NCBI GenBank assembly: GCA_963807785.1
Contig: CAWEEC010000092.1
Location: forward strand, 6,309-70,308
Length of the DNA: 64,000 nucleotides
From: an uncultured Gammaproteobacteria bacterium
Lineage (GTDB): Bacteria; Pseudomonadota; Gammaproteobacteria; SZUA-229
Direction: 5' to 3'
Part shown: piece by piece, positions 1 through 60,589 of the stretch
Position numbering within the stretch: the first letter of the stretch is position 1
Layout: each line of letters opens with the position of its first letter
Made by a program: the position numbers and the translations under genes
The notes under the pieces: model-generated
Told to the model about the DNA's origin: nothing
The model's database searches: none
Seen by the model: only the letters and a program-made list of their open reading frames with translations

Positions 1-365
1 GCAAGGTAAATCATGTAATCAACCGCCAACTTCACCTCTTCATCGTTCAAATCATCATTACCGCCGCGTGCCGGCATCATGCTGTAATCAGGCCCGATAA
101 AACCATTGATCGCATGTTCATAAAGAACCTGTTTACCTTTAATTAACCTGAAGCTCCATTCTTCCGGCCGCATGGGTATAGGTGCATCCGCAACCCCATA
201 GCCATGACAGGGCTCACAGTTTTGCAGCCAGAGCTCACGTCCCTGTGAGATGCTTTGCTCTTTTGATGTGATATATCTCACATCTGCATAAATCGGAGAC
301 ATGATTAATGACCCGATAAAACTCAATGCAGTGGCTGTGATTAATGCCTGCACGACAAAAGCCAT
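1..365 (-). CDS. class I c-type cytochrome (c5-like), 3' end runs off the window
   Basis: Hand translation of the minus strand from ATG 365..363: hydrophobic signal-like N-terminus, single CEPCH haem motif, then MMPARGG...EEVKLAVDYM typical of cytochrome c5. No stop before position 1. The ATG overlaps the TGA of the upstream ORF (TGATG). Confidence 0.75.
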   Translation of the reverse strand, partial: MAFVVQALITATALSFIGSLIMSPIYADVRYITSKEQSISQGRELWLQNCEPCHGYGVADAPIPMRPEEWSFRLIKGKQVLYEHAINGFIGPDYSMMPARGGNDDLNDEEVKLAVDYMIYL

Positions 366-970
366 CAGCCTTCGACCGGTATACGTATTACAACGCCGCC
401 CATAACATCACCCAGCTTGAAATCTTTCTTCGGTGTATCCGGGTGCTTGTTATGACAGGACACACATACCGGTGCGACGCCGGTATCGGCATAGATCGCA
501 GTAAAATATGTTTTTCCGCCCAGCTTTTCCGTGGTGTAATAGTTTTTACCTTTATTTTCGGCAACGTATTTCAAGCCTGCTTTTTCGGCATCCGTTTTTG
601 GTGCATTCTGTTTATTGATTGGCCACATGGATTGCAATGTATAACTGAAATCGACATCATCCAGTTTTTCTGCACGTTTCATTGCCAGCTCAGAGCCAAA
701 CCTGAACATCTGCGCCGGCAGTACCAGTGCCTTATCGTCTTCAAAATGCTCGGACGCCTTGATGACCTTCTCTTTCTTTACAAGCCTGTTTACAATTTTT
801 TTGGTGTATACAGACCGGTCTGAATCCATGACCAGATGCAGAGCATCTGCCATCGCTTTCACCGAAACAGTAGCATTGGTTACCGGTTCACTGGCTATCG
901 ATACGCCTGCTATGGCTATTGATGCTGCTGCAATTACACCAACAGCTGTCTTTACTTTCATCGTCTTCAT
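365..970 (-). CDS. secreted DUF3365 (Tll0287-like) haem-c domain protein
   Basis: 201 aa with a signal peptide (MKTMKVKTAVGVIAAASIAIAG) and a single C-terminal CVSCH motif followed by DFKLGDVMGGVVIRIP, as I recall for the DUF3365 family. Translationally coupled to the downstream cytochrome. Confidence 0.65.
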   Translation of the reverse strand: MKTMKVKTAVGVIAAASIAIAGVSIASEPVTNATVSVKAMADALHLVMDSDRSVYTKKIVNRLVKKEKVIKASEHFEDDKALVLPAQMFRFGSELAMKRAEKLDDVDFSYTLQSMWPINKQNAPKTDAEKAGLKYVAENKGKNYYTTEKLGGKTYFTAIYADTGVAPVCVSCHNKHPDTPKKDFKLGDVMGGVVIRIPVEG

Positions 971-1029: not shown

Positions 1030-2457
1030 CTAGAATCCAAACATATCCGAATCATCATCCTGCTCGGCCGCTTCCTGCTCACGTCTTGCGCTTTCTTTGC
1101 GCGCCAGGTCCATACTCGTAACATGAACTTGAGCCTTGCCATTAAAATTGCTCTCTATGAGTGACACATCAGCCAGGGCATCAAGGGTATATTCCAGGCC
1201 GTGACAATGCAGGCAGGATGAGCGAATCATCTTTGAATTTGGCGAGAGGCTGGCACTCTGGTTATGATCTACAATGATGCGACTCATCCATTCGCTAACA
1301 TCATAATTAAACCGCGGCATGTGGCAGCTCGCGCAAGACACACCAGTGTTCTGCGCAGACTCTCCACTGGTTTCTTTTCGCCAAAGCTGATAATGCGAAG
1401 AATCCTTATAGGAAATACTGTGCTTATCTTCATGGCAACCCAGGCATGCTTCTACAGCTGCCTGTTGCACATTAAAACTGTGTGCACCATGGCAGCTGAC
1501 ACAGTTCAGCTCAAGATGGCCTGAATCTTTTTTCATCGGCAGCAGCGACAGTGCAGGAGTCATCGGGGACAGCCCTTGCTGCAGGCGCATTCCATGCTTA
1601 CCTTCCATGAAACGACTTACCTCAACACCATGACAACTCTCGCATACAGTATGATCAGGGTGGTCGTCCCATTGTGCCGGCTCATCATCAACTTGCTGTG
1701 CCATGTGACAAGCACTGCAGTTGACTCCCGAGCGGGCGTGCGCAGTTTCAAGCCACTGCATTTTTATGTCTGTGTCTACAGTTAACCTGTCGCTGGCATC
1801 GATATCGTTTTCATCCAGCCGCTCAACGGGGTATTTTTCCCGTGGGTATTCAACTATTTCATCCAGCAAAGCTGCAAACTCTTTTGCCGGTAAACTCATT
1901 TCCTCAAGCAATGGGGGTTCATTCAAATGCTTGATCAAAAAATCTGTATAGAGCGCGCGGTTATTATGAAAATTATGGCAGCCAGAGTCCTTGCAGGTTT
2001 CAAAGCCCATGCCCTGATGAGAAGGCCTGTCTTCTGCAATATCCTGGTGACAGTGAAAACAGACATCGACCGGTTGTGTTAATCCGTCTTTCGCTGTTAT
2101 CTCCGGCTTATGCTCGCTATGACAACTGATACACTGCAATGCATTTATGCTCTCCAGCAATTCCGCGTTTCTCGGATCCTTGAATTTTCTTGCCGGGTGC
2201 GAATCAAATGGTTTAACCCGATCTTTACCATGACAATCCACGCACGCTTGCTGCAGTACTTCACCACCACCAAATGAATCGGTATGGCACGCATCGCAGG
2301 CATCGATTAACTGGTGATGACCGGGTGACAAATCACCAGGCATGAATATCGCTTTGTCAGTATTATCATTCAGCATGGTCATCGCCAGCCATGAGCCCAG
2401 TATGAGTGACAGTAAAACCCACGCGATCCAGTAAACTGCTTTTTGGGTTATAACCAT
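1030..2457 (-). CDS. membrane-anchored multihaem cytochrome c (10 CxxCH plus one CxxxxCH)
   Basis: 475 aa with an N-terminal TM helix (VYWIAWVLLSLILGSWLAMTML). Motifs counted in the translation: CDACH, CVDCH, CISCH, CFHCH, CKDSGCH, CSACH, CESCH, CVSCH, CLGCH, CASCH, CLHCH. No CxxCK motif. Confidence 0.85.
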   Translation of the reverse strand: MVITQKAVYWIAWVLLSLILGSWLAMTMLNDNTDKAIFMPGDLSPGHHQLIDACDACHTDSFGGGEVLQQACVDCHGKDRVKPFDSHPARKFKDPRNAELLESINALQCISCHSEHKPEITAKDGLTQPVDVCFHCHQDIAEDRPSHQGMGFETCKDSGCHNFHNNRALYTDFLIKHLNEPPLLEEMSLPAKEFAALLDEIVEYPREKYPVERLDENDIDASDRLTVDTDIKMQWLETAHARSGVNCSACHMAQQVDDEPAQWDDHPDHTVCESCHGVEVSRFMEGKHGMRLQQGLSPMTPALSLLPMKKDSGHLELNCVSCHGAHSFNVQQAAVEACLGCHEDKHSISYKDSSHYQLWRKETSGESAQNTGVSCASCHMPRFNYDVSEWMSRIIVDHNQSASLSPNSKMIRSSCLHCHGLEYTLDALADVSLIESNFNGKAQVHVTSMDLARKESARREQEAAEQDDDSDMFGF

Positions 2458-2465
2458 GCTGCCGC

Positions 2466-4481
2466 CTAGAAGTAGTAACTTTTAACAACATGGAACCCCA
2501 GCAAAATCGGAATTGGCCAGAACAACACAATATGCAGCAATGTCCATTGACGCCGCTGTTTTTTTGCCAGTGCGGGTGACATTCTGTGCTCAGTCGCAAC
2601 GACAGTGCTCGCGTATGCACCAACAACTGTCAGTACAAGGAAGTTAATCATTAGCAACATATTCAACTCGTTGCCCAGACGAAACCCGGTATGGACAATT
2701 AATGCCACGAGCACACATACTCCCAGCACTGCATGGAAATATCGCCATAGATTAAAATCGCCAAAATCTATTTTGTTAATGCGTTTGCGCAGGGAAATAC
2801 CAAGACCGAGCAACATTAGCCCCAACATGGTGAAGCCACTGATCTGTTTCAATAGCGAGTTTCGCCAGAGCTCATCCCAGCGAATATCAACCTGAACGCT
2901 ATCTGCATAGGGAATACGCCAGATAAAAATGAACAATACAACGAGACACAGGGTGAAGGCTGACATGGCGAGAAGGCTTCGCCACGATCTGGTCGGCTCG
3001 ACACGTATATCTTCACCCAGCAGCTCGGCCAGTAATGGCTTGCATGATCCACATACACTTCCTGCACGTGTTTCGGAAGTAAGGCAGGCTATATTTTCAC
3101 AGCCTGATGTAACGACCTGTGTCAATCGGCCACGTGTGACACCGGTGCAATTGCAGACCACCGCAGCTGCAGGCCATGACACAACATCCATGTCTTCTTC
3201 ATTACCCCACAGATTACCACTGGACTTGAACCGTAGCAGGTGCCAGAAAGCCAGTCTTTTTTTGTTCACAATTGCATCTTGCAGTAATGATGATTCGTGC
3301 CAGTCACCGATAGCTATGGCGCCGATCAGTCGATTACCAAATAAACGAATCTTTCTGTAAATGCCGTGATCTTTTGATGTGTAAATGTATTCCTTGACGC
3401 CACCAGCCGATTCCTCGTCCACGCCTGTTCGACCCGCACTGAACACAGCCTGCTCCATGACTTTCAAACGAGTCGATTCCAGCGAGCCTATATAACGTGA
3501 ATTACCCCCTGACAACCGGTCAGCCAACACTGCAGCCTGCTCCAATCCTGGTTTGACCAGGCCGTAAACATTATTATTATGTTCGGCACATTCGCCGATG
3601 GCATAAACATGCTCATCTGAGGTTTCGAGATAGTCATTAATACGAATCCCTTTATGAAAAGCAATGCCACTATCTCTGGCCAAATCAGAATTGGGTCGAA
3701 TTCCCGCAGCTACAATCACTGTATCACAGGTGATTTCTCTACCACTACGTAAGCTAACTGCCTCTACCCGATTATTCCCCAGCACACTGACGACACTGTC
3801 ACCCAGCTCAACATAAACACCATTTTGCTCGACGTAATCTCTAAGGTAGTTGCCGCCACGCTGATCTAGCTGCTGCATCATCAGCCATTGGTTATGCTCG
3901 ATAACTGTGATTTGAGTATTGTAACGCTGCATCGCTCGAGCTGTTTCCAGCCCCAGCAATCCACCGCCTATAACGACCGTGTGCTGCGATTTCAACCTGC
4001 GAGCAAATAGCGAATCCGCTTCACTCAATGAACGAAAAGTAAATACGCCCTGATAATGAATATTGCCTATTGAAGGTATAAAAGGTCTGGAACCAACAGC
4101 AAGAACAAGATGTGAATAATGTTGTACATTGCCTGATGCGTCCGTAATGGTTCTTGCTACTCTGTCAATCCATTGGACTGCACAATTTAGACGCATTTCG
4201 ATAACAGCATCAGGCTGCACAGGCGTGCCAAGTTCAAGCTCATCCCTGTCTACATCTCCAGCAAGATAGGATGACAACCTTACTCTGTCGTAAGGGTTCC
4301 ACGGCTCACTGCCATATACAACAACCGGGTAGTCGCAAGCCTTTTTCACAAGCTCATTGACAAAGTGCATGCCAACCGGGCCTGCGCCAACAACTACAAT
4401 CGCTTCTTGTTCAAATGGCACATGTGTCTTTGACTCGTCAGTTTCGTCAACATGTTCTATTTGCTGTATTGCTATGCTCAT
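2466..4481 (-). CDS. NirB-type NAD(P)H-dependent flavoprotein with BFD-like [2Fe-2S] domain, fused to a C-terminal 5-TM putative di-haem-b module; no sirohaem domain
   Basis: 671 aa. GxGxxG at aa 31-36 (VVVGAGPVGM) and aa 172-177 (VVIGGGLLGLE). Cys cluster C443/C445...C477/C480 (CNCTG...CGSCKP). About five TM helices in aa 500-671, with His583-x13-His597 and His650-x13-His664 in two of them. Confidence 0.8.
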   Translation of the reverse strand: MSIAIQQIEHVDETDESKTHVPFEQEAIVVVGAGPVGMHFVNELVKKACDYPVVVYGSEPWNPYDRVRLSSYLAGDVDRDELELGTPVQPDAVIEMRLNCAVQWIDRVARTITDASGNVQHYSHLVLAVGSRPFIPSIGNIHYQGVFTFRSLSEADSLFARRLKSQHTVVIGGGLLGLETARAMQRYNTQITVIEHNQWLMMQQLDQRGGNYLRDYVEQNGVYVELGDSVVSVLGNNRVEAVSLRSGREITCDTVIVAAGIRPNSDLARDSGIAFHKGIRINDYLETSDEHVYAIGECAEHNNNVYGLVKPGLEQAAVLADRLSGGNSRYIGSLESTRLKVMEQAVFSAGRTGVDEESAGGVKEYIYTSKDHGIYRKIRLFGNRLIGAIAIGDWHESSLLQDAIVNKKRLAFWHLLRFKSSGNLWGNEEDMDVVSWPAAAVVCNCTGVTRGRLTQVVTSGCENIACLTSETRAGSVCGSCKPLLAELLGEDIRVEPTRSWRSLLAMSAFTLCLVVLFIFIWRIPYADSVQVDIRWDELWRNSLLKQISGFTMLGLMLLGLGISLRKRINKIDFGDFNLWRYFHAVLGVCVLVALIVHTGFRLGNELNMLLMINFLVLTVVGAYASTVVATEHRMSPALAKKQRRQWTLLHIVLFWPIPILLGFHVVKSYYF

Positions 4482-4495
4482 TAATTACCTGTCAC

Positions 4496-4537
4496 AAAAA
4501 AAACGCCCGCACATGATCTTCATCATTTGTGCGAGCG
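4496..4537 (-). terminator. intrinsic terminator inside the 5' leader of the flavoprotein/cytochrome operon (attenuator)
   Basis: Minus-strand RNA CGCUCGCACA-(14 nt, inner UGAU/AUCA pairing)-UGUGCGGGCG followed by U8. The stem is 10 bp with one G-U pair. It ends 15 nt before the ATG at 4481. Confidence 0.75.
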
Positions 4538-4585
4538 CCTCTGCTCATTGACTCTGTACAAAATGTACTAAAGGCCTTCTTTGGC
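4533..4585 (-). promoter_or_regulatory. candidate ANTAR (NasT) target: two hairpins with A-x-x-G hexaloops; the second competes with the leader terminator
   Basis: RNA GGCC-AAAGAA-GGCC (4572..4585) and GAGC-AGAGGC-GCUC (4533..4546). Both loops have A at position 1 and G at position 4. The 3' arm of hairpin 2 is part of the 5' arm of the terminator. Stems are only 4 bp and the linker is ~25 nt. Confidence 0.5.
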
Positions 4586-4614
4586 CAGAGCTATATTAAA
4601 GATTGCAATTAAAC

Positions 4615-4630
4615 TAGCATTTAGCGTGCC
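4615..4630 (-). promoter_or_regulatory. sigma-54 (-24/-12) promoter of the flavoprotein/cytochrome operon
   Basis: The minus strand reads TGGCACGCTAAATGCT. GG and GC have canonical spacing (consensus TGGCAC-N5-TTGCA). It lies ~135-150 nt upstream of the ATG at 4481. Confidence 0.75.
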
Positions 4631-4720
4631 AATCTTTTTTTATATATCTCCTTGATAATTTATTGAAACATCATCGTACTTACCTTTAAGGCACCAAGTT
4701 GGAACAGACGCATGAGCGGT

Positions 4721-4737
4721 TGCACTGCTATTGTGCC
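4721..4737. promoter_or_regulatory. NtrC-type enhancer site
   Basis: TGCACTGCTATTGTGCC has the GCAC-N7-GTGC spacing of TGCACC-N5-GGTGCA, ~95-110 nt upstream of the sigma-54 promoter. A weaker half-site lies at 4690..4706. Confidence 0.6.
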
Positions 4738-5222
4738 TAACATGTGATTTCATCTACTCTTAAAAGAAATTCATCGAAATTTATATAATGGCTTCCATCA
4801 CAGGAAAAATTCAACCCGACCATACCGTTTACGATATTCAATGATCCGGAGCGTAAGTATATTTGTGGATCCTTCAATCGAAGGTGTTTGAACTTTTCGA
4901 GTATCGGTGTAATGCTTTCGGGATTTATTACTGCATCTCGCGCATATTTTTTCAACGGGTAGACATTATAGTTATCGAGTTTAAGAAACTCGTCTTTCAC
5001 ATGTACTCTATATCTGAGCGGATCATCGATTAGCCATAAAGTCACTTGACCACTTGAAAAATGCACTTTTGCATGAAACACACCGTAATTGCATATGAGA
5101 TCAGCAACACGCGCAAGGACTTCGTCCAGGTGTTGATCAAACTCATTTAATTTACGTTCCTGATGAAAAAGAAACTCCCGTATTGATGGATCACCTCGAA
5201 TTTGTATCCAGTCGTTAGGCAT
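4737..5222 (-). CDS. hypothetical protein (161 aa), no family recognised
   Basis: Long ORF with a strong SD (GGGAGGG, 4 nt before the ATG), 52 nt downstream of nasT on the same strand. No TM helix, signal peptide or motif recognised. Confidence 0.6.
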   Translation of the reverse strand: MPNDWIQIRGDPSIREFLFHQERKLNEFDQHLDEVLARVADLICNYGVFHAKVHFSSGQVTLWLIDDPLRYRVHVKDEFLKLDNYNVYPLKKYARDAVINPESITPILEKFKHLRLKDPQIYLRSGSLNIVNGMVGLNFSCDGSHYINFDEFLLRVDEITC

Positions 5223-5274: not shown

Positions 5275-5847
5275 TTATACTAGTACTTCAGATGCAGATA
5301 TGATCTGCTCAGCGATCTCCCCCATACGTTTATTATGATTCATTGCCAGTTTCCGCATTGCATTATATGCCTGATCCTCACTCAGGCTTTTTGATTTCAT
5401 TATGATACCCTTGGCTTTCTCTACACGCTTGCGTTCCTGTAGTGCATTTTTTGTTTGCCATAACTCTTTTTTAAGTTTCTGTTGTTCCTGAAAACGCGCC
5501 CTGGCTACACCCAGTAGTGTGACCAGACGCTCTGGATCATTACAATCTACAACATAGGCTGTCGCCCCGGCCTTTACCGCGGCATCAATCGAATCGTGTT
5601 GTGAGTCACGGGTAAAGACAAGCATTGGCGTTGGCCGCCTCTCTGAAATTGCCTTCATTTCACGCAATATCGGCTGGTCTATTTCATCACTGACGATTAT
5701 CATCGCATCCGGGCGCAGTGATTCAACATACTTGCTGGCTTGATCATTTGGTCCGATTAGTTTCAGCAGGCGATAGCCGGCCCTGGACGCAGCACGCAGC
5801 AGCGGCTGCGAACTGTTCAGACAATCAGCAACAAGAATCAGATCCAT
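5275..5847 (-). CDS. nasT: ANTAR-domain antitermination regulator, NasT/AmiR type
   Basis: 190 aa: N-terminal receiver-like domain, coiled linker, and a C-terminal ANTAR signature (ERKRVEKAKGIIMKSKSLSEDQAYNAMRKLAMNHNKRMGEIAEQII). Confidence 0.85.
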   Translation of the reverse strand: MDLILVADCLNSSQPLLRAASRAGYRLLKLIGPNDQASKYVESLRPDAMIIVSDEIDQPILREMKAISERRPTPMLVFTRDSQHDSIDAAVKAGATAYVVDCNDPERLVTLLGVARARFQEQQKLKKELWQTKNALQERKRVEKAKGIIMKSKSLSEDQAYNAMRKLAMNHNKRMGEIAEQIISASEVLV

Positions 5848-5882: not shown

Positions 5883-5898
5883 TGCAATATATATGCCA
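5883..5898 (-). promoter_or_regulatory. sigma-54 promoter of nasT
   Basis: The minus strand reads TGGCATATATATTGCA with canonical GG/GC spacing, 36-51 nt upstream of the ATG at 5847. Confidence 0.7.
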
Positions 5899-6003
5899 TC
5901 AGAACGAACAGCTTTAACCGCTTGAAAATGCATAGGAGCTAACTTTCTATATAGAGGACTTCATCAATCCTGTGAAACCGCTTGGTGCACTAGCTGCAGT
6001 CAT

Positions 6004-6020
6004 CGCACTTCCTTGGTGCG
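6004..6020. promoter_or_regulatory. NtrC-type enhancer site upstream of nasT
   Basis: CGCACTTCCTTGGTGCG (GCAC-N7-GTGC), ~110-135 nt upstream of the nasT sigma-54 promoter. An adjacent half-site TGCAC lies at ~5986. Confidence 0.6.
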
Positions 6021-58707: not shown

Positions 58708-60589
58708 TTAATGCGAAGCTTTTTTCAGGTGTACCATCAATAATGAGATCGCAGCGGGCGTCACTCCTGGAATACGACTGGCCTGGCCGATGGTCTGCGG
58801 CCGAAAATCTGTCAGCTTCTGGGTAACTTCTGCAGACAGTCCCCGCACGGACTGGTAGTCGATCACGTTTGGTATCAGTGTCTGCTCATGGCGGCGGGCT
58901 TTCTCGATTTCAGCATGCTGCCGTTGGAGATAACCCGAGTATTTGGCCTGGATTTCCACCTGTTCTGCCACGGCAGCATCGCTGACGGCGCCGCCAATCG
59001 CGGCTGTCAGCTTTTGATAGTCGATTTCGGGCCGACGCAATAGATCGCTGGCCTTGTAATCGCGCGACAGCGGCTTATCGAGATAAGCCGATAATTGCTC
59101 GCCGGGTTCCGAATCAGGCAGTACTGTGAGCCCACTCAAACGGCGTTGTTCATGGGCTATAGCCTCGCTTTTTTGCGCAAACGCGCGCCAGTGCGCAGCG
59201 TTGATCAGGCCCATTTCACGCGCTACCGAGGTTAATCTCAGGTCCGCATTGTCTTCGCGTAATATCAGGCGATATTCGGCACGGCTGGTAAACATACGGT
59301 AGGGCTCGGTGGTACCGCGCGTAATCAGATCATCGACCAGTACGCCCAGGTAAGCCTGATCGCGAGCGGGTGTCCAGGCTTCCTGTTGCTGCACTCGGCG
59401 AGTGGCATTAATGGCTGCCAGCAAGCCCTGTGCCGCTGCTTCTTCATAACCGGTGGTACCGTTGATTTGCCCTGCGAAAAACAGGCCATGAATGAATTTG
59501 GTTTCGAGTGATGCTTTCAGGTCACGCGGATCAAAATAATCATATTCGATGGCATAGCCGGGGCGGGTGATGTGGGCATGCTCAAATCCCTTCATCGAGC
59601 GCACGAATGCGAGCTGGACATCAAACGGCAGGCTGGTTGAAATACCGTTGGGATACACCTCGTGCGTGTTCAGACCTTCGGGTTCGATGAAAATCTGGTG
59701 CGCGTCCTTATCGGCAAAACGCACGATCTTGTCTTCGATCGACGGACAGTAACGCGGGCCAATGCCTTCGATAACACCGCTGTACATCGGTGAACGGTCC
59801 AGGCCGCCACGGATGATGTCATGTGTGCGGTTATTGGTATGGGTGATGTGGCAGCTGATCTGTTGCGGGTGTTGTTCAGTCTTGACCGGTGAAAGAGAAT
59901 ACCGGTGTCGGGGTATCGCCCGGCTGTTCCTGCAAGCCGGAGTAATCAATGCTGCGGCCGTCAATGCGGGGCGGGGTGCCGGTTTTCAATCGGCCTACAC
60001 GGAAAGGCAGTTCTCGCAAACGATGTGCCAGCGCTATCGATGGCGGATCCCCGGCACGACCGCCTGAATGGTGACTTTCGCCGATATGGATCTTGCCGCC
60101 CAGGAAGGTGCCCACGGTCAAAACCACCGACCGCGCGCGGAATTTAAGCCCCATCTGGGTAATAACGCCGCAAACCTGGTCGCCCTGCCCATCGTTGGCG
60201 ATAATCAGGTCATCAACCGCCTGCTGGAAGATGGAAAGATTGGGCTGATTTTCCAGCGCCTGTCGAATCGCGGCCTTGTACAGCACTCGATCGGCCTGGG
60301 CCCGGGTAGCCCGTACCGCTGGTCCCTTGCGGCTGTTGAGCATACGGAACTGGATGCCACCCCGGTCAGCCGCCTTTGCCATGATGCCACCCATGGCATC
60401 GATTTCTTTTACCAGATGGCCCTTGCCAATACCGCCGATGGCCGGGTTGCAGCTCATTTGCCCCAGGGTCTCGATGTTGTGAGACAGCAACAGGGTTTTT
60501 ACACCCATGCGCGCGGCCGCCAGCGCGGCCTCGGTGCCTGCATGGCCACCGCCGATCACGATCACATCAAAACTTTCACTATAGAACAT
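58708..60589 (-). pseudogene. mnmG: tRNA uridine-5-carboxymethylaminomethyl modification enzyme MnmG, interrupted by one +1 frameshift
   Basis: A 237-aa N-terminal fragment and a 418-aa C-terminal fragment overlap at 59876..59964. Removing one base near 59884 (GGT-C-AAG) gives [24 protein letters not shown], colinear with E. coli MnmG. The span is 1882 nt (3n+1). Confidence 0.9.

What the first reader, a model, noticed from the sequence alone, without database searches (positions are those of the whole stretch)
4482..4737. Three-layer control region: NtrC site, sigma-54 promoter, and an ANTAR-style terminator/antiterminator leader
Reading the minus strand upstream of the operon, these elements appear in order:
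- An NtrC-type site, TGCACTGCTATTGTGCC.
- A canonical -24/-12 promoter, TGGCACGCTAAATGCT.
- A hairpin GGCC-AAAGAA-GGCC.
- A hairpin GAGC-AGAGGC-GCUC.
- A 10-bp-stem terminator with U8, ending 15 nt before the start codon.

Both hexaloops have A at position 1 and G at position 4, the published hallmark of ANTAR-bound dual hairpins. The 3' arm of the second hairpin is part of the terminator's 5' arm, so the two structures are mutually exclusive. A NasT-type ANTAR gene lies 800 nt upstream on the same strand. This is the classical logic of nasT-controlled nitrate/nitrite assimilation operons, applied here to a non-canonical operon.

Caveats: the hairpin stems are only 4 bp, and the ~25-nt linker is longer than I remember for typical ANTAR targets.
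Basis: partly seen in the sequence, partly recalled or inferred. Interest (0 to 1): 0.6.

Follow-up and report, generated by a model that had tools for sequence, protein, structure and literature searches.

The report
NasT-type attenuator before haem-flavin operon
The 250 bases in front of an undescribed flavoprotein/multihaem-cytochrome operon hold a nitrogen-starvation promoter and a protein-switchable transcription stop of the well-known nitrate-assimilation (NasT/ANTAR) type. The control design is ordinary, but it places this uncharacterised operon in the nitrate-assimilation regulon.

Summary
- an NtrC-like dyad at 4721-4737;
- an exact sigma-54 promoter at 4631-4616;
- hairpin P1, GGCC-AAAGAA-GGCC, at 4586-4573;
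- hairpin P2, GAGC-AGAGGC-GCUC, at 4546-4533;
- a -21 kcal/mol terminator with U8 at 4537-4496, whose 5' arm includes the 3' arm of P2.

Comparison shows this is not chance. A covariance model built from seven other leaders, without the window, scores this one at 54 bits. It finds only three sites in the whole 3.5-Mb genome. One of them precedes the canonical nrtABD-nirB nitrate-assimilation genes 5 kb downstream on the same strand.

The same design precedes the orthologous operon in about 48 of 78 loci from Gamma- and Betaproteobacteria. Loop position 4 is G in every leader with a letter there, and position 1 is A in about 30 of 33. The closing pairs are C:G, and the stems show many compensatory changes. 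Sediment populations carry a G-C to A-U double change in P1.

NasT, NtrB, NtrC and RpoN are all encoded. No NasS sensor was found, and the 26-nt linker is longer than in the published motif, though long linkers are conserved in this genus.

Verdict: a new member of a known regulatory kind. The interest lies in the operon it controls.

The parts
4721..4737 (.). NtrC-like dyad TGCACTGCTATTGTGCC (enhancer site 1). Its centre is about -124 from the predicted transcription start, and it begins right after the orf161 stop codon.
   Evidence: It has 1 mismatch to TGCAC-N7-GTGCA. In 31 of 41 orthologous promoters there is such a site at -30..-180, against 14 of 205 control windows. Population variants keep the GCAC and GTGC cores.
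4690..4706 (.). Weaker second NtrC-like site (minus strand TGTTCCAACTTGGTGCC), 31 bp from site 1.
   Evidence: It has 3 mismatches. The 31-bp spacing resembles the 32 bp between the paired sites of glnAp2, which I cite from my own knowledge. This site is inferred only.
4616..4631 (-). Sigma-54 (-24/-12) promoter TGGCACGCTAAATGCT. The predicted start is near 4605.
   Evidence: It is an exact consensus match, one of 2 in the window against 0.30 expected. A promoter of this kind is conserved upstream of 45 of 77 orthologous operons. The GG and GC elements are kept in population variants. rpoN is present in the genome.
4573..4586 (-). P1 hairpin GGCC-AAAGAA-GGCC: a hexaloop with A1 and G4 and a C:G closing pair. 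It can be extended to 4590-4569 across a 2x2 internal loop.
   Evidence: Covariation: 4 of 7 pairs show double changes within the genus, and all 4 outer pairs do so across 37 leaders. Sediment contigs X3 and X4 carry G4585-C4574 changed to A-U.
4556..4568 (-). Small hairpin within the 26-nt linker (GUACA-UUU-UGUAC).
   Evidence: It appears in the minimum-free-energy fold. Seven of 10 long linkers fold into a small hairpin, with z-scores of only -1.3 to -2.0. This is suggestive, not established.
4533..4546 (-). P2 hairpin GAGC-AGAGGC-GCUC: a hexaloop with A1 and G4 and a C:G closing pair. This is the antiterminator.
   Evidence: On its own it has a free energy of -5.5 kcal/mol. P2 is conserved in all eight genus leaders, with one G-C to A-U swap. 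In the 37-leader alignment the P2 loop is A-A-H-G-G-C, with G4 in 33 of 33. Relatives read AAAGGC here.
4496..4537 (-). Intrinsic terminator. The 5' arm (4537-4528) includes the last loop base of P2 and its 3' arm. The 3' arm is 4513-4504 and U8 is 4503-4496.
   Evidence: Free energy -21.4 kcal/mol. Of its 9 pairs, 5 show compensatory changes and 97% of cells are paired.
5275..5847 (-). nasT: a 190-aa pseudo-receiver plus ANTAR protein, the presumed antiterminator.
   Evidence: Pfam ANTAR at 6e-20. Its nearest solved relatives are a response regulator (6wsh), the putative antiterminator 1s8n, NasR (4akk) and AmiR (1qo0). It is the only strong ANTAR protein in the genome. A near-consensus sigma-54 promoter lies at 5898-5883.
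4737..5222 (-). orf161, an unknown gene between nasT and the leader.
   Evidence: No Pfam or NCBIfam match. Homologues lie near nasT in at least three other loci (L028, L029, L104). Its role was not tested.
2466..4481 (-). First gene of the controlled operon: a 671-aa flavoprotein with the NirB N-terminal FAD/NAD and BFD [2Fe-2S] modules and a C-terminal membrane domain, but no sirohaem domain.
1030..2457 (-). 475-aa multihaem cytochrome c with 10-11 CxxCH motifs.
   Evidence: More than 584 related loci exist in public genomes.
3..970 (-). Tll0287-like haem-c protein (970-365) and a small cytochrome c (365 onward, running off the window). A globin gene follows outside the window.
   Evidence: A globin is present in 70 of about 80 related loci.

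Best explanation
The stretch 4737-4482 (minus strand) is the control region of a five-gene operon: flavoprotein, multihaem cytochrome, Tll0287-like haem protein, cytochrome c and globin.

Layers 1 and 2. Under nitrogen limitation, phosphorylated NtrC binds the dyad at 4721-4737, and perhaps a weaker one at 4690-4706. It activates RNA polymerase-sigma-54 at TGGCAC-N5-ATGC (4631-4616), and transcription starts near 4605.

Layer 3. By default the roughly 110-nt leader folds into the -21 kcal/mol terminator followed by U8, and transcription stops before the start codon. When the ANTAR protein NasT is active, a NasT dimer binds the two A-N-N-G-N-N hexaloops of P1 and P2. That stabilises the weak P2 stem (-5.5 kcal/mol). 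P2 then holds the outer five to six bases of the terminator's 5' arm, so the remaining hairpin is no longer next to the U tract, and the polymerase reads into the operon.

The same NasT also controls the nrtABD-nirB leader 5 kb downstream.

What is shown: sequence, structure, conservation, covariation and the presence of all the factors. What is inferred: NtrC and NasT binding, antitermination, and nitrate/nitrite as the inducing signal.
For: - All elements are present at the stated places.
- Model R2, built from 7 other leaders, scores the window leader at 54.1 bits (E = 1e-8). Only 3 sites exist in the 3.5-Mb genome: this leader, its copy on contig C20, and the nrtA leader.
- The nrtA leader has the same design: NtrC-like GCAC/GTGC half-sites, TTGGCACGGTAACTGCAT, P1 CGGCU-AAUGAU-GGCCG, a long linker, P2 GAGC-AAUGGC-GCUC and a terminator. 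It precedes nrtA-nrtB-nrtD-nirB.
- Model R1, built from 11 leaders of other families, finds a site within 350 nt upstream of the flavoprotein gene in 48 of about 78 loci. It also finds second sites, mostly before nrtA.
- Covariation across 37 leaders: 88.8% of cells are paired against 71% when shuffled, 70 double-change cells against 21, and 0 of 500 shuffles reach the observed value. The terminator covaries as well.
- Loop position 4 is G in 33 of 33 leaders, position 1 is A in 30 of 32-33, and the closing pair is C:G or U:G in all.
- In sediment populations the variants spare A1/G4 and the GG/GC promoter elements, and they include a compensatory G-C to A-U change in P1.
- NtrC-like sites are enriched upstream of orthologous promoters: 31 of 41 against 14 of 205 controls.
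- nasT, ntrB, ntrC and rpoN are all encoded.
- Published hallmarks and mechanism match: PMC3369931, PMC7496416, PMC10783516, PMC3795266.
Against: - There is no experimental or transcript evidence. No RNA run holds the stretch.
- The 26-nt linker is far longer than the 5-12 nt of the E. faecalis eut leaders, where a 14-nt linker abolished induction (PMC3369931).
- Against R1, the short-linker model, the window scores only 13.3 bits.
- No NasS-like sensor gene exists in this 93%-complete assembly, so the nitrate/nitrite signal is inferred only from the shared regulon.
- P1 has only 4 contiguous base pairs.
- The window's P2 loop has G at position 2, where 33 of 33 other leaders have A.
- No Rfam family reaches its threshold.
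Confidence: 0.85

Rival explanations
1. The attenuator is real, but a factor other than the adjacent NasT reads it. That factor could be the second, weak ANTAR-domain protein on contig C96 or a non-ANTAR RNA-binding protein. NasT would then serve only the nrtA leader.
For: A second ANTAR match exists at G000:C96:9531-9680 (28 bits). The window's P2 loop (AGAGGC) and P1 loop (AAAGAA) differ slightly from those of the nrtA leader (AAUGGC, AAUGAU).
Against: The two leaders share architecture and the GAGC/GCUC P2 stem, and a single model finds both. nasT lies directly upstream of this operon here and in about 25 other loci. Close relatives read AAAGGC in P2.
Confidence: 0.05
2. The main product is the roughly 110-nt terminated leader itself, acting in trans as a nitrogen-regulated small RNA. 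The leader RNA NalA of P. aeruginosa is listed among RpoN-dependent RNAs (PMC4253122). Read-through would be secondary.
For: The default fold terminates efficiently. The leader is transcribed from a strong sigma-54 promoter.
Against: Outside the hairpins the sequence is poorly conserved. Conservation falls on the ANTAR loops, the stems and the P2/terminator overlap, which are features of a cis switch. This rival does not exclude the cis role.
Confidence: 0.05
3. Chance resemblance: an ordinary sigma-54 promoter and a 5' hairpin or terminator, with the hexaloops having no function.
For: The stems are short, and A1/G4 hexaloop hairpins with at least 4 bp occur at about 1.3 per kb per strand.
Against: The only other C:G-closed pair of such hairpins in 128 kb lies inside a coding region. 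The leader scores 54 bits against an independent model. Covariation and loop invariance hold across 37 leaders.
Confidence: 0.01

Closest known systems
NalA, the nirBD leader of Pseudomonas aeruginosa and P. putida (NtrC/RpoN promoter plus NasT antitermination; Romeo et al. 2012, pmid 22493305, cited in PMC4253122; PMC10783516)
   Same: A sigma-54 promoter dependent on NtrBC. A leader with two hexaloop hairpins whose A1 and G4 are needed for NasT binding. A Rho-independent terminator that NasT prevents from forming. The consensus of Rfam RF00625 (P11), as printed, shows the same order: TGGCAC-N5-CUGC, two hexaloop hairpins (AACGAU and AUAGAA), then a terminator.
   Different: The target is not nirBD but a flavoprotein/multihaem/globin operon. 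The linker is 26 nt and probably holds its own small hairpin. No nasS partner gene was found. The leader scores 15.8 bits against RF00625, whose gathering score is 70, so it is not a member of that Rfam family.
ANTAR two-hairpin substrate as defined for EutV, NasR and AmiR (Ramesh et al. 2012, PMC3369931; NasR SELEX, PMC7496416)
   Same: Two stem-loops with at least 3 bp each. Hexanucleotide loops with A at position 1 and G at position 4. A terminal C:G pair. The second hairpin is mutually exclusive with an intrinsic terminator.
   Different: The linker is 26 nt, and 22-39 nt across this genus, against 5-12 nt in the eut leaders, where 14 nt was deleterious.
Klebsiella oxytoca nasF leader with NasR, and Paracoccus denitrificans nasA leader with NasS-NasT (PMC7496416, PMC3795266)
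   Same: Dual control of nitrate-assimilation genes, by nitrogen limitation through Ntr and by nitrate/nitrite through an ANTAR antiterminator acting on the leader RNA.
   Different: The regulator here has neither NasR's NIT sensor domain nor a NasS partner, so the way the signal enters is unknown.
Bradyrhizobium diazoefficiens NasT acting on nap and nos (PMC6759348)
   Same: A precedent for NasT antitermination controlling periplasmic haem/cytochrome redox systems rather than only the assimilatory reductases.
   Different: The target genes and the organism class differ. Those targets are denitrification genes of known function.

Membership tests
ANTAR-target dual-hairpin RNA (Ramesh et al. 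2012) | Two stem-loops, each with at least 3 base pairs | tested here: met
   P1 has 4 bp and can be extended across an internal loop. P2 has 4 bp plus a U-G pair.
ANTAR-target dual-hairpin RNA (Ramesh et al. 2012) | Hexanucleotide loops with A at position 1 and G at position 4 | tested here: met
   The loops are AAAGAA and AGAGGC. Across 37 related leaders, G4 is present in 33 of 33 and A1 in 30 of 32-33.
ANTAR-target dual-hairpin RNA (Ramesh et al. 2012) | Conserved terminal C:G closing pair (PMC7496416) | tested here: met
   Both hairpins close with C:G. In related leaders the counts are CG 26 and UG 6 for P1, and CG 30 and UG 3 for P2.
ANTAR-target dual-hairpin RNA (Ramesh et al. 2012) | [quoted passage not shown] | tested here: met
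   The last loop base of P2 and its 3' arm (4537-4533) form the outer part of the terminator's 5' arm, and U8 follows. The same overlap is seen in all leaders inspected.
ANTAR-target dual-hairpin RNA (Ramesh et al. 2012) | Short linker giving close proximity of the two loops (5-12 nt in eut leaders) | tested here: not met
   The linker is 26 nt. It is 22-39 nt in all 8 leaders of this genus, including the nrtA leaders. An internal linker hairpin may restore proximity, but support for it is weak.
ANTAR-target dual-hairpin RNA (Ramesh et al. 2012) | Genome encodes an ANTAR protein | tested here: met
   nasT lies about 790 nt upstream on the same strand.
ANTAR-target dual-hairpin RNA (Ramesh et al. 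2012) | Bound by the ANTAR protein, with binding preventing termination | not testable with these tools
   This needs EMSA, in vitro transcription or reporter fusions.
Sigma-54 / NtrC-dependent promoter | GG at -24 and GC at -12 with the consensus TGGCAC-N5-TTGCW | tested here: met
   TGGCACGCTAAATGCT is an exact match to TGGCAC-N5-WTGCW, with 2 found against 0.30 expected. rpoN is present.
Sigma-54 / NtrC-dependent promoter | NtrC dyad sites about 100-140 bp upstream, and ntrBC present | tested here: met
   The site at 4721-4737 has 1 mismatch. Such sites are enriched in orthologues, 31 of 41 against 7% of controls. ntrB and ntrC both score above the NCBIfam cut-offs. Binding itself was not tested.
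Rfam RF00625 (Pseudomonas sRNA P11) | Score at or above the gathering threshold of 70 bits | tested here: not met
   The window scores 15.8 bits, E = 0.5. Six related leaders give no Rfam match at E <= 0.1.
NasS-NasT two-component system | An NrtA-like cytoplasmic sensor NasS that sequesters NasT | tested here: not met
   PF13379 matches only the two halves of nrtA in the whole assembly. The assembly is 93% complete, so absence is not proven.

The most novel reading that the evidence does not exclude
The NtrC/sigma-54/ANTAR wiring is conserved in dozens of genomes and sits between nasT and nrtABD-nirB. On this reading it marks the flavoprotein-multihaem-Tll0287-cytochrome-globin operon as an unrecognised working part of nitrate assimilation. 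The operon could carry electrons from NAD(P)H to the periplasm to reduce or detoxify nitrite, NO or hydroxylamine. In this clade NasT would work without NasS, perhaps with orf161 as a new partner, and on a long-linker, three-hairpin variant of the ANTAR target.
Probability: 0.45. Interest if true: 0.75.

Novelty: new member of a known kind. Interest (0 to 1): 0.45.

Why it matters
The regulatory design itself is textbook for nitrate-assimilation genes. Its value here is as a functional label. The operon occurs in more than 580 bacterial species, and I found no description of it in three literature searches. This leader says the operon is switched on only when fixed nitrogen is scarce and the nitrate-assimilation antiterminator is active. 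That narrows its likely role to nitrogen-oxide chemistry linked to assimilation, and it gives a simple experimental handle: leader-reporter fusions with and without NasT.

The conserved 22-39-nt linker shows that ANTAR proteins can read hairpins much further apart than the EutV work suggested. The missing NasS raises the question of how this NasT senses its signal.

Tried and rejected
- Rfam scans of the leader and of six related loci found no family at threshold. There was only a weak architectural resemblance to RF00625.
- Model R1, built from short-linker leaders, aligned only P2 and the terminator of the window (13.3 bits), because it cannot span the long linker. Model R2, built from the genus leaders without the window, solved this.
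- The pattern count for TGCAC-N7-GTGCA with up to 2 mismatches is not enriched over the whole window: 32 found against 45 expected. The NtrC argument therefore rests on position and on conservation in orthologues, not on the count.
- The simple terminator scanner missed the terminator because of the bulged stem.
- A second dual-hexaloop pair at 59197/59152 turned out to lie inside the mnmG coding sequence, so it is a chance match.
- An alternative P1 nearer to P2 (UUGU-ACAGAG-UCAA) was rejected. Its closing pair is mismatched and it is not conserved in the closest leader (L020).
- No RNA sequencing run holds the region, so transcript ends could not be examined.
- I considered that frameshifted nirB and nrtA mean the new operon replaces the canonical pathway. 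I rejected this as unsupported, because related populations lack the extra base at both places.

Full report
**What is in the window.** On the minus strand the gene order is as follows.
- nasT (5847-5275): 190 aa, Pfam ANTAR at 6e-20.
- orf161 (5222-4737): no family match.
- A 255-nt gap.
- A 671-aa flavoprotein (4481-2466). It has the FAD/NAD and BFD [2Fe-2S] modules of NirB and a C-terminal membrane domain, but no sirohaem domain.
- A 475-aa cytochrome c with 10-11 haem motifs (2457-1030).
- A Tll0287-like haem protein (970-365).
- A small cytochrome c (365 onward).

The window is G000:C92:6309-70308. The contig upstream of the window's first base shows that a globin gene overlaps the end of the cytochrome c gene, so it is a fifth operon member.

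**Checking the observation.** Every listed element is present.
- NtrC-type dyad at 4721-4737.
- TGGCACGCTAAATGCT at 4631-4616.
- P1, GGCC-AAAGAA-GGCC, at 4586-4573.
- A 26-nt linker.
- P2, GAGC-AGAGGC-GCUC, at 4546-4533.
- Terminator arms at 4537-4528 and 4513-4504, with U8 at 4503-4496.
- Fourteen bases later, the ATG at 4481.

The fold of 4610-4482 has -42.7 kcal/mol (z = -4.4) and shows P1 and the terminator but not P2. Taken alone, the terminator has -21.4 kcal/mol and P2 has -5.5 kcal/mol. The default state is therefore termination, and P2 needs outside stabilisation.

The promoter is one of two exact TGGCAC-N5-WTGCW matches in 64 kb, against 0.30 expected. The other lies before glnA. A pair of C:G-closed A1/G4 hexaloop hairpins within 60 nt occurs only twice in 128 kb of strand, and the second pair is inside mnmG.

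**The same leader elsewhere in this genome.** About 5 kb downstream on the same strand, after the globin gene, the following elements occur in order:
- NtrC-like GCAC/GTGC half-sites;
- TTGGCACGGTAACTGCAT;
- P1, CGGCU-AAUGAU-GGCCG;
- a 26-nt linker holding a small palindrome;
- P2, GAGC-AAUGGC-GCUC;
- a terminator.

The genes that follow are nrtA, nrtB, nrtD and a true nirB with a NIR_SIR domain. This is the canonical nitrate-assimilation operon.

A covariance model (R2) was built from seven long-linker leaders without the window. It scores the window leader at 54.1 bits, E = 1.3e-8. In the whole 3.5-Mb assembly it finds only three real sites:
- the window leader;
- the nrtA leader;
- the leader of a second copy of the operon on contig C20, whose proteins are 68-90% identical to the window's.

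**Orthologous leaders.** The four-gene core is conserved in relatives. An alignment of the cytochrome found more than 584 loci in Gamma- and Betaproteobacteria, Verrucomicrobiota and Nitrospirota. Named examples are Halochromatium glycolicum DSM 11080 and MAGs of Thiobacillus denitrificans, Alcanivorax, Granulosicoccus and Methylophilaceae.

Upstream of the flavoprotein gene, the 77 regions examined show the following.
- 45 have a sigma-54 promoter.
- 42 have an A1/G4 hexaloop hairpin followed by a T-run.
- 21 have both hairpins with stems of at least 4 bp.

The usual form is P1, then 1-9 nt, then P2 of the type GGAC-AAAGGC-GUCC. The loop's GGC and the 3' arm of P2 lie inside the terminator's 5' arm.

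Model R1, built from 11 such leaders, finds 73 sites in 864 kb. Of these, 48 lie within 350 nt upstream of the flavoprotein gene, and most of the rest precede nrtA.

Covariation is strong.
- Across 37 leaders, 88.8% of cells pair against 71% in shuffles, with 70 double-change cells against 21. No shuffle out of 500 reaches the observed values.
- Within the genus, P1 has 4 of 7 pairs with double changes, and the terminator has 5 of 9.
- Loop position 4 is G in 33 of 33 leaders, position 1 is A in 30 of 32-33, and closing pairs are C:G or U:G throughout.

**Natural variation.** Contigs from sediment metagenomes, about 95% identical to the window, carry 20-odd differences in 4380-4800.
- None touches A1 or G4 of either loop, or the promoter's GG and GC.
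- P2 loop position 2 changes from G to A, giving the common AAAGGC.
- The inner terminator pair U-A becomes U-G.
- In two runs (X3, X4), G4585-C4574 of P1 becomes A-U on the same contigs, a compensatory double change.

**NtrC layer.** The site at 4721-4737 has one mismatch to TGCAC-N7-GTGCA. The pattern as such is not enriched in the window, but its position is informative.
- It lies about 124 nt upstream of the predicted start.
- A weaker site lies 31 bp further on.
- The glnA and nasT promoters have similar sites upstream.
- Of 41 orthologous promoters, 31 have such a site at -30..-180, against 14 of 205 control windows.

ntrB and ntrC lie in the window and score above the NCBIfam cut-offs. 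rpoN is on contig C102.

**Mechanism.** This matches the published scheme.
- NtrBC and RpoN start transcription of nas operons under nitrogen limitation.
- The leader forms a Rho-independent terminator.
- NasT binds two hexaloop hairpins through A1 and G4 and prevents termination (PMC10783516; Romeo et al. 2012, cited in PMC4253122; PMC3795266).
- The ANTAR substrate is defined as two hairpins of at least 3 bp, A1/G4 hexaloops, conserved closing pairs, and a second hairpin that overlaps the terminator (PMC3369931, PMC7496416).

All of these features are met here except the short linker.

**What differs.**
1. The linker is 26 nt, and 22-39 nt in all eight leaders of this genus, including the two before nrtA. 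In the eut system the range is 5-12 nt, and 14 nt was harmful (PMC3369931). Seven of ten long linkers can form a small hairpin, but the support is weak, with z-scores of -1.3 to -2.0.
2. No NasS-like gene is found. PF13379 hits only nrtA.
3. The NasT receiver domain has Asp where the aligned response regulator has its conserved Lys (VVD against VKP). It also has Ala-Asp where receivers usually carry an acidic pair (my own knowledge). It therefore looks like a pseudo-receiver controlled by a partner protein, as in AmiC-AmiR and NasS-NasT. The partner is unknown. orf161, which lies near nasT in at least three other loci, is a candidate that I did not test.
4. The controlled operon is not a known nitrate or nitrite reductase.

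**Limits.** There are no transcript data. No Rfam family covers these leaders. Binding, antitermination and the inducing signal are all inferred.

**Verdict.** The leader is a new member of the NasT/ANTAR attenuator kind, in a long-linker form. Its main value is that it places an undescribed, widespread haem-flavin operon in the nitrate-assimilation regulon. Earlier notes of this scan on other genomes reached the same view. I treated them as leads and reproduced the evidence independently here.

Noticed in passing
G000:C92:5520-5620 (L107 5619..5520, minus strand), about 690-790 bases before the window's first base: A second leader of identical design (NtrC-like sites, sigma-54 promoter, P1, long linker, P2, terminator) lies in front of nrtA-nrtB-nrtD-nirB. 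The whole cluster reads nasT-orf161 | leader | five-gene haem operon | leader | canonical nas genes, all on one strand.
   Followed up: yes
L107 about 1436 (nirB) and about 5082 (nrtA): Both canonical genes change reading frame in this assembly. Sediment-metagenome contigs of close relatives lack one base at exactly these two places, so intact forms exist. I could not tell whether this is an assembly error or recent pseudogenes.
   Followed up: partly
L107 6264..5842 (minus strand), just outside the window: A 140-aa globin gene starts about 20 nt before the stop of the small cytochrome c gene, which suggests translational coupling. A globin follows the cytochromes in 70 of about 80 related loci, so the operon has five genes.
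   Followed up: partly
G000:C20:1-9709 (L020): A second copy of the leader and operon is in the same bin, with proteins 68-90% identical to the window's, followed by a NirB-like gene. It could be a paralogue or a contig from a related organism, since the bin has 8% contamination. The contig starts inside the upstream region, so no nasT is visible.
   Followed up: partly
window 4737-5222 (minus strand): orf161 has no family match. Homologues lie beside or near nasT in L028, L029 and L104, and elsewhere in L030, L044 and L065. With no NasS in the genome, it is a candidate NasT partner.
   Followed up: no
window 5883-5898 (minus strand), with dyads at 5973-5989 and 6004-6020: nasT has its own near-consensus sigma-54 promoter (TGGCATATATATTGCA) with two NtrC-like dyads 75-120 nt upstream. 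The antiterminator itself therefore appears to be under Ntr control.
   Followed up: partly
G000:C96:9531-9680: A second, weak ANTAR-domain match (28 bits) lies in a 246-aa open frame. Its targets are unknown, and model R2 finds no further leader in the genome.
   Followed up: no
related loci L050, L063, L076, L083: In some genomes the sigma-54 promoter lies about 50 nt from the flavoprotein start with no attenuator. In L083 the ANTAR leaders sit further downstream in the locus (9111, 10818) instead. The Ntr layer therefore seems more widespread than the ANTAR layer.
   Followed up: partly
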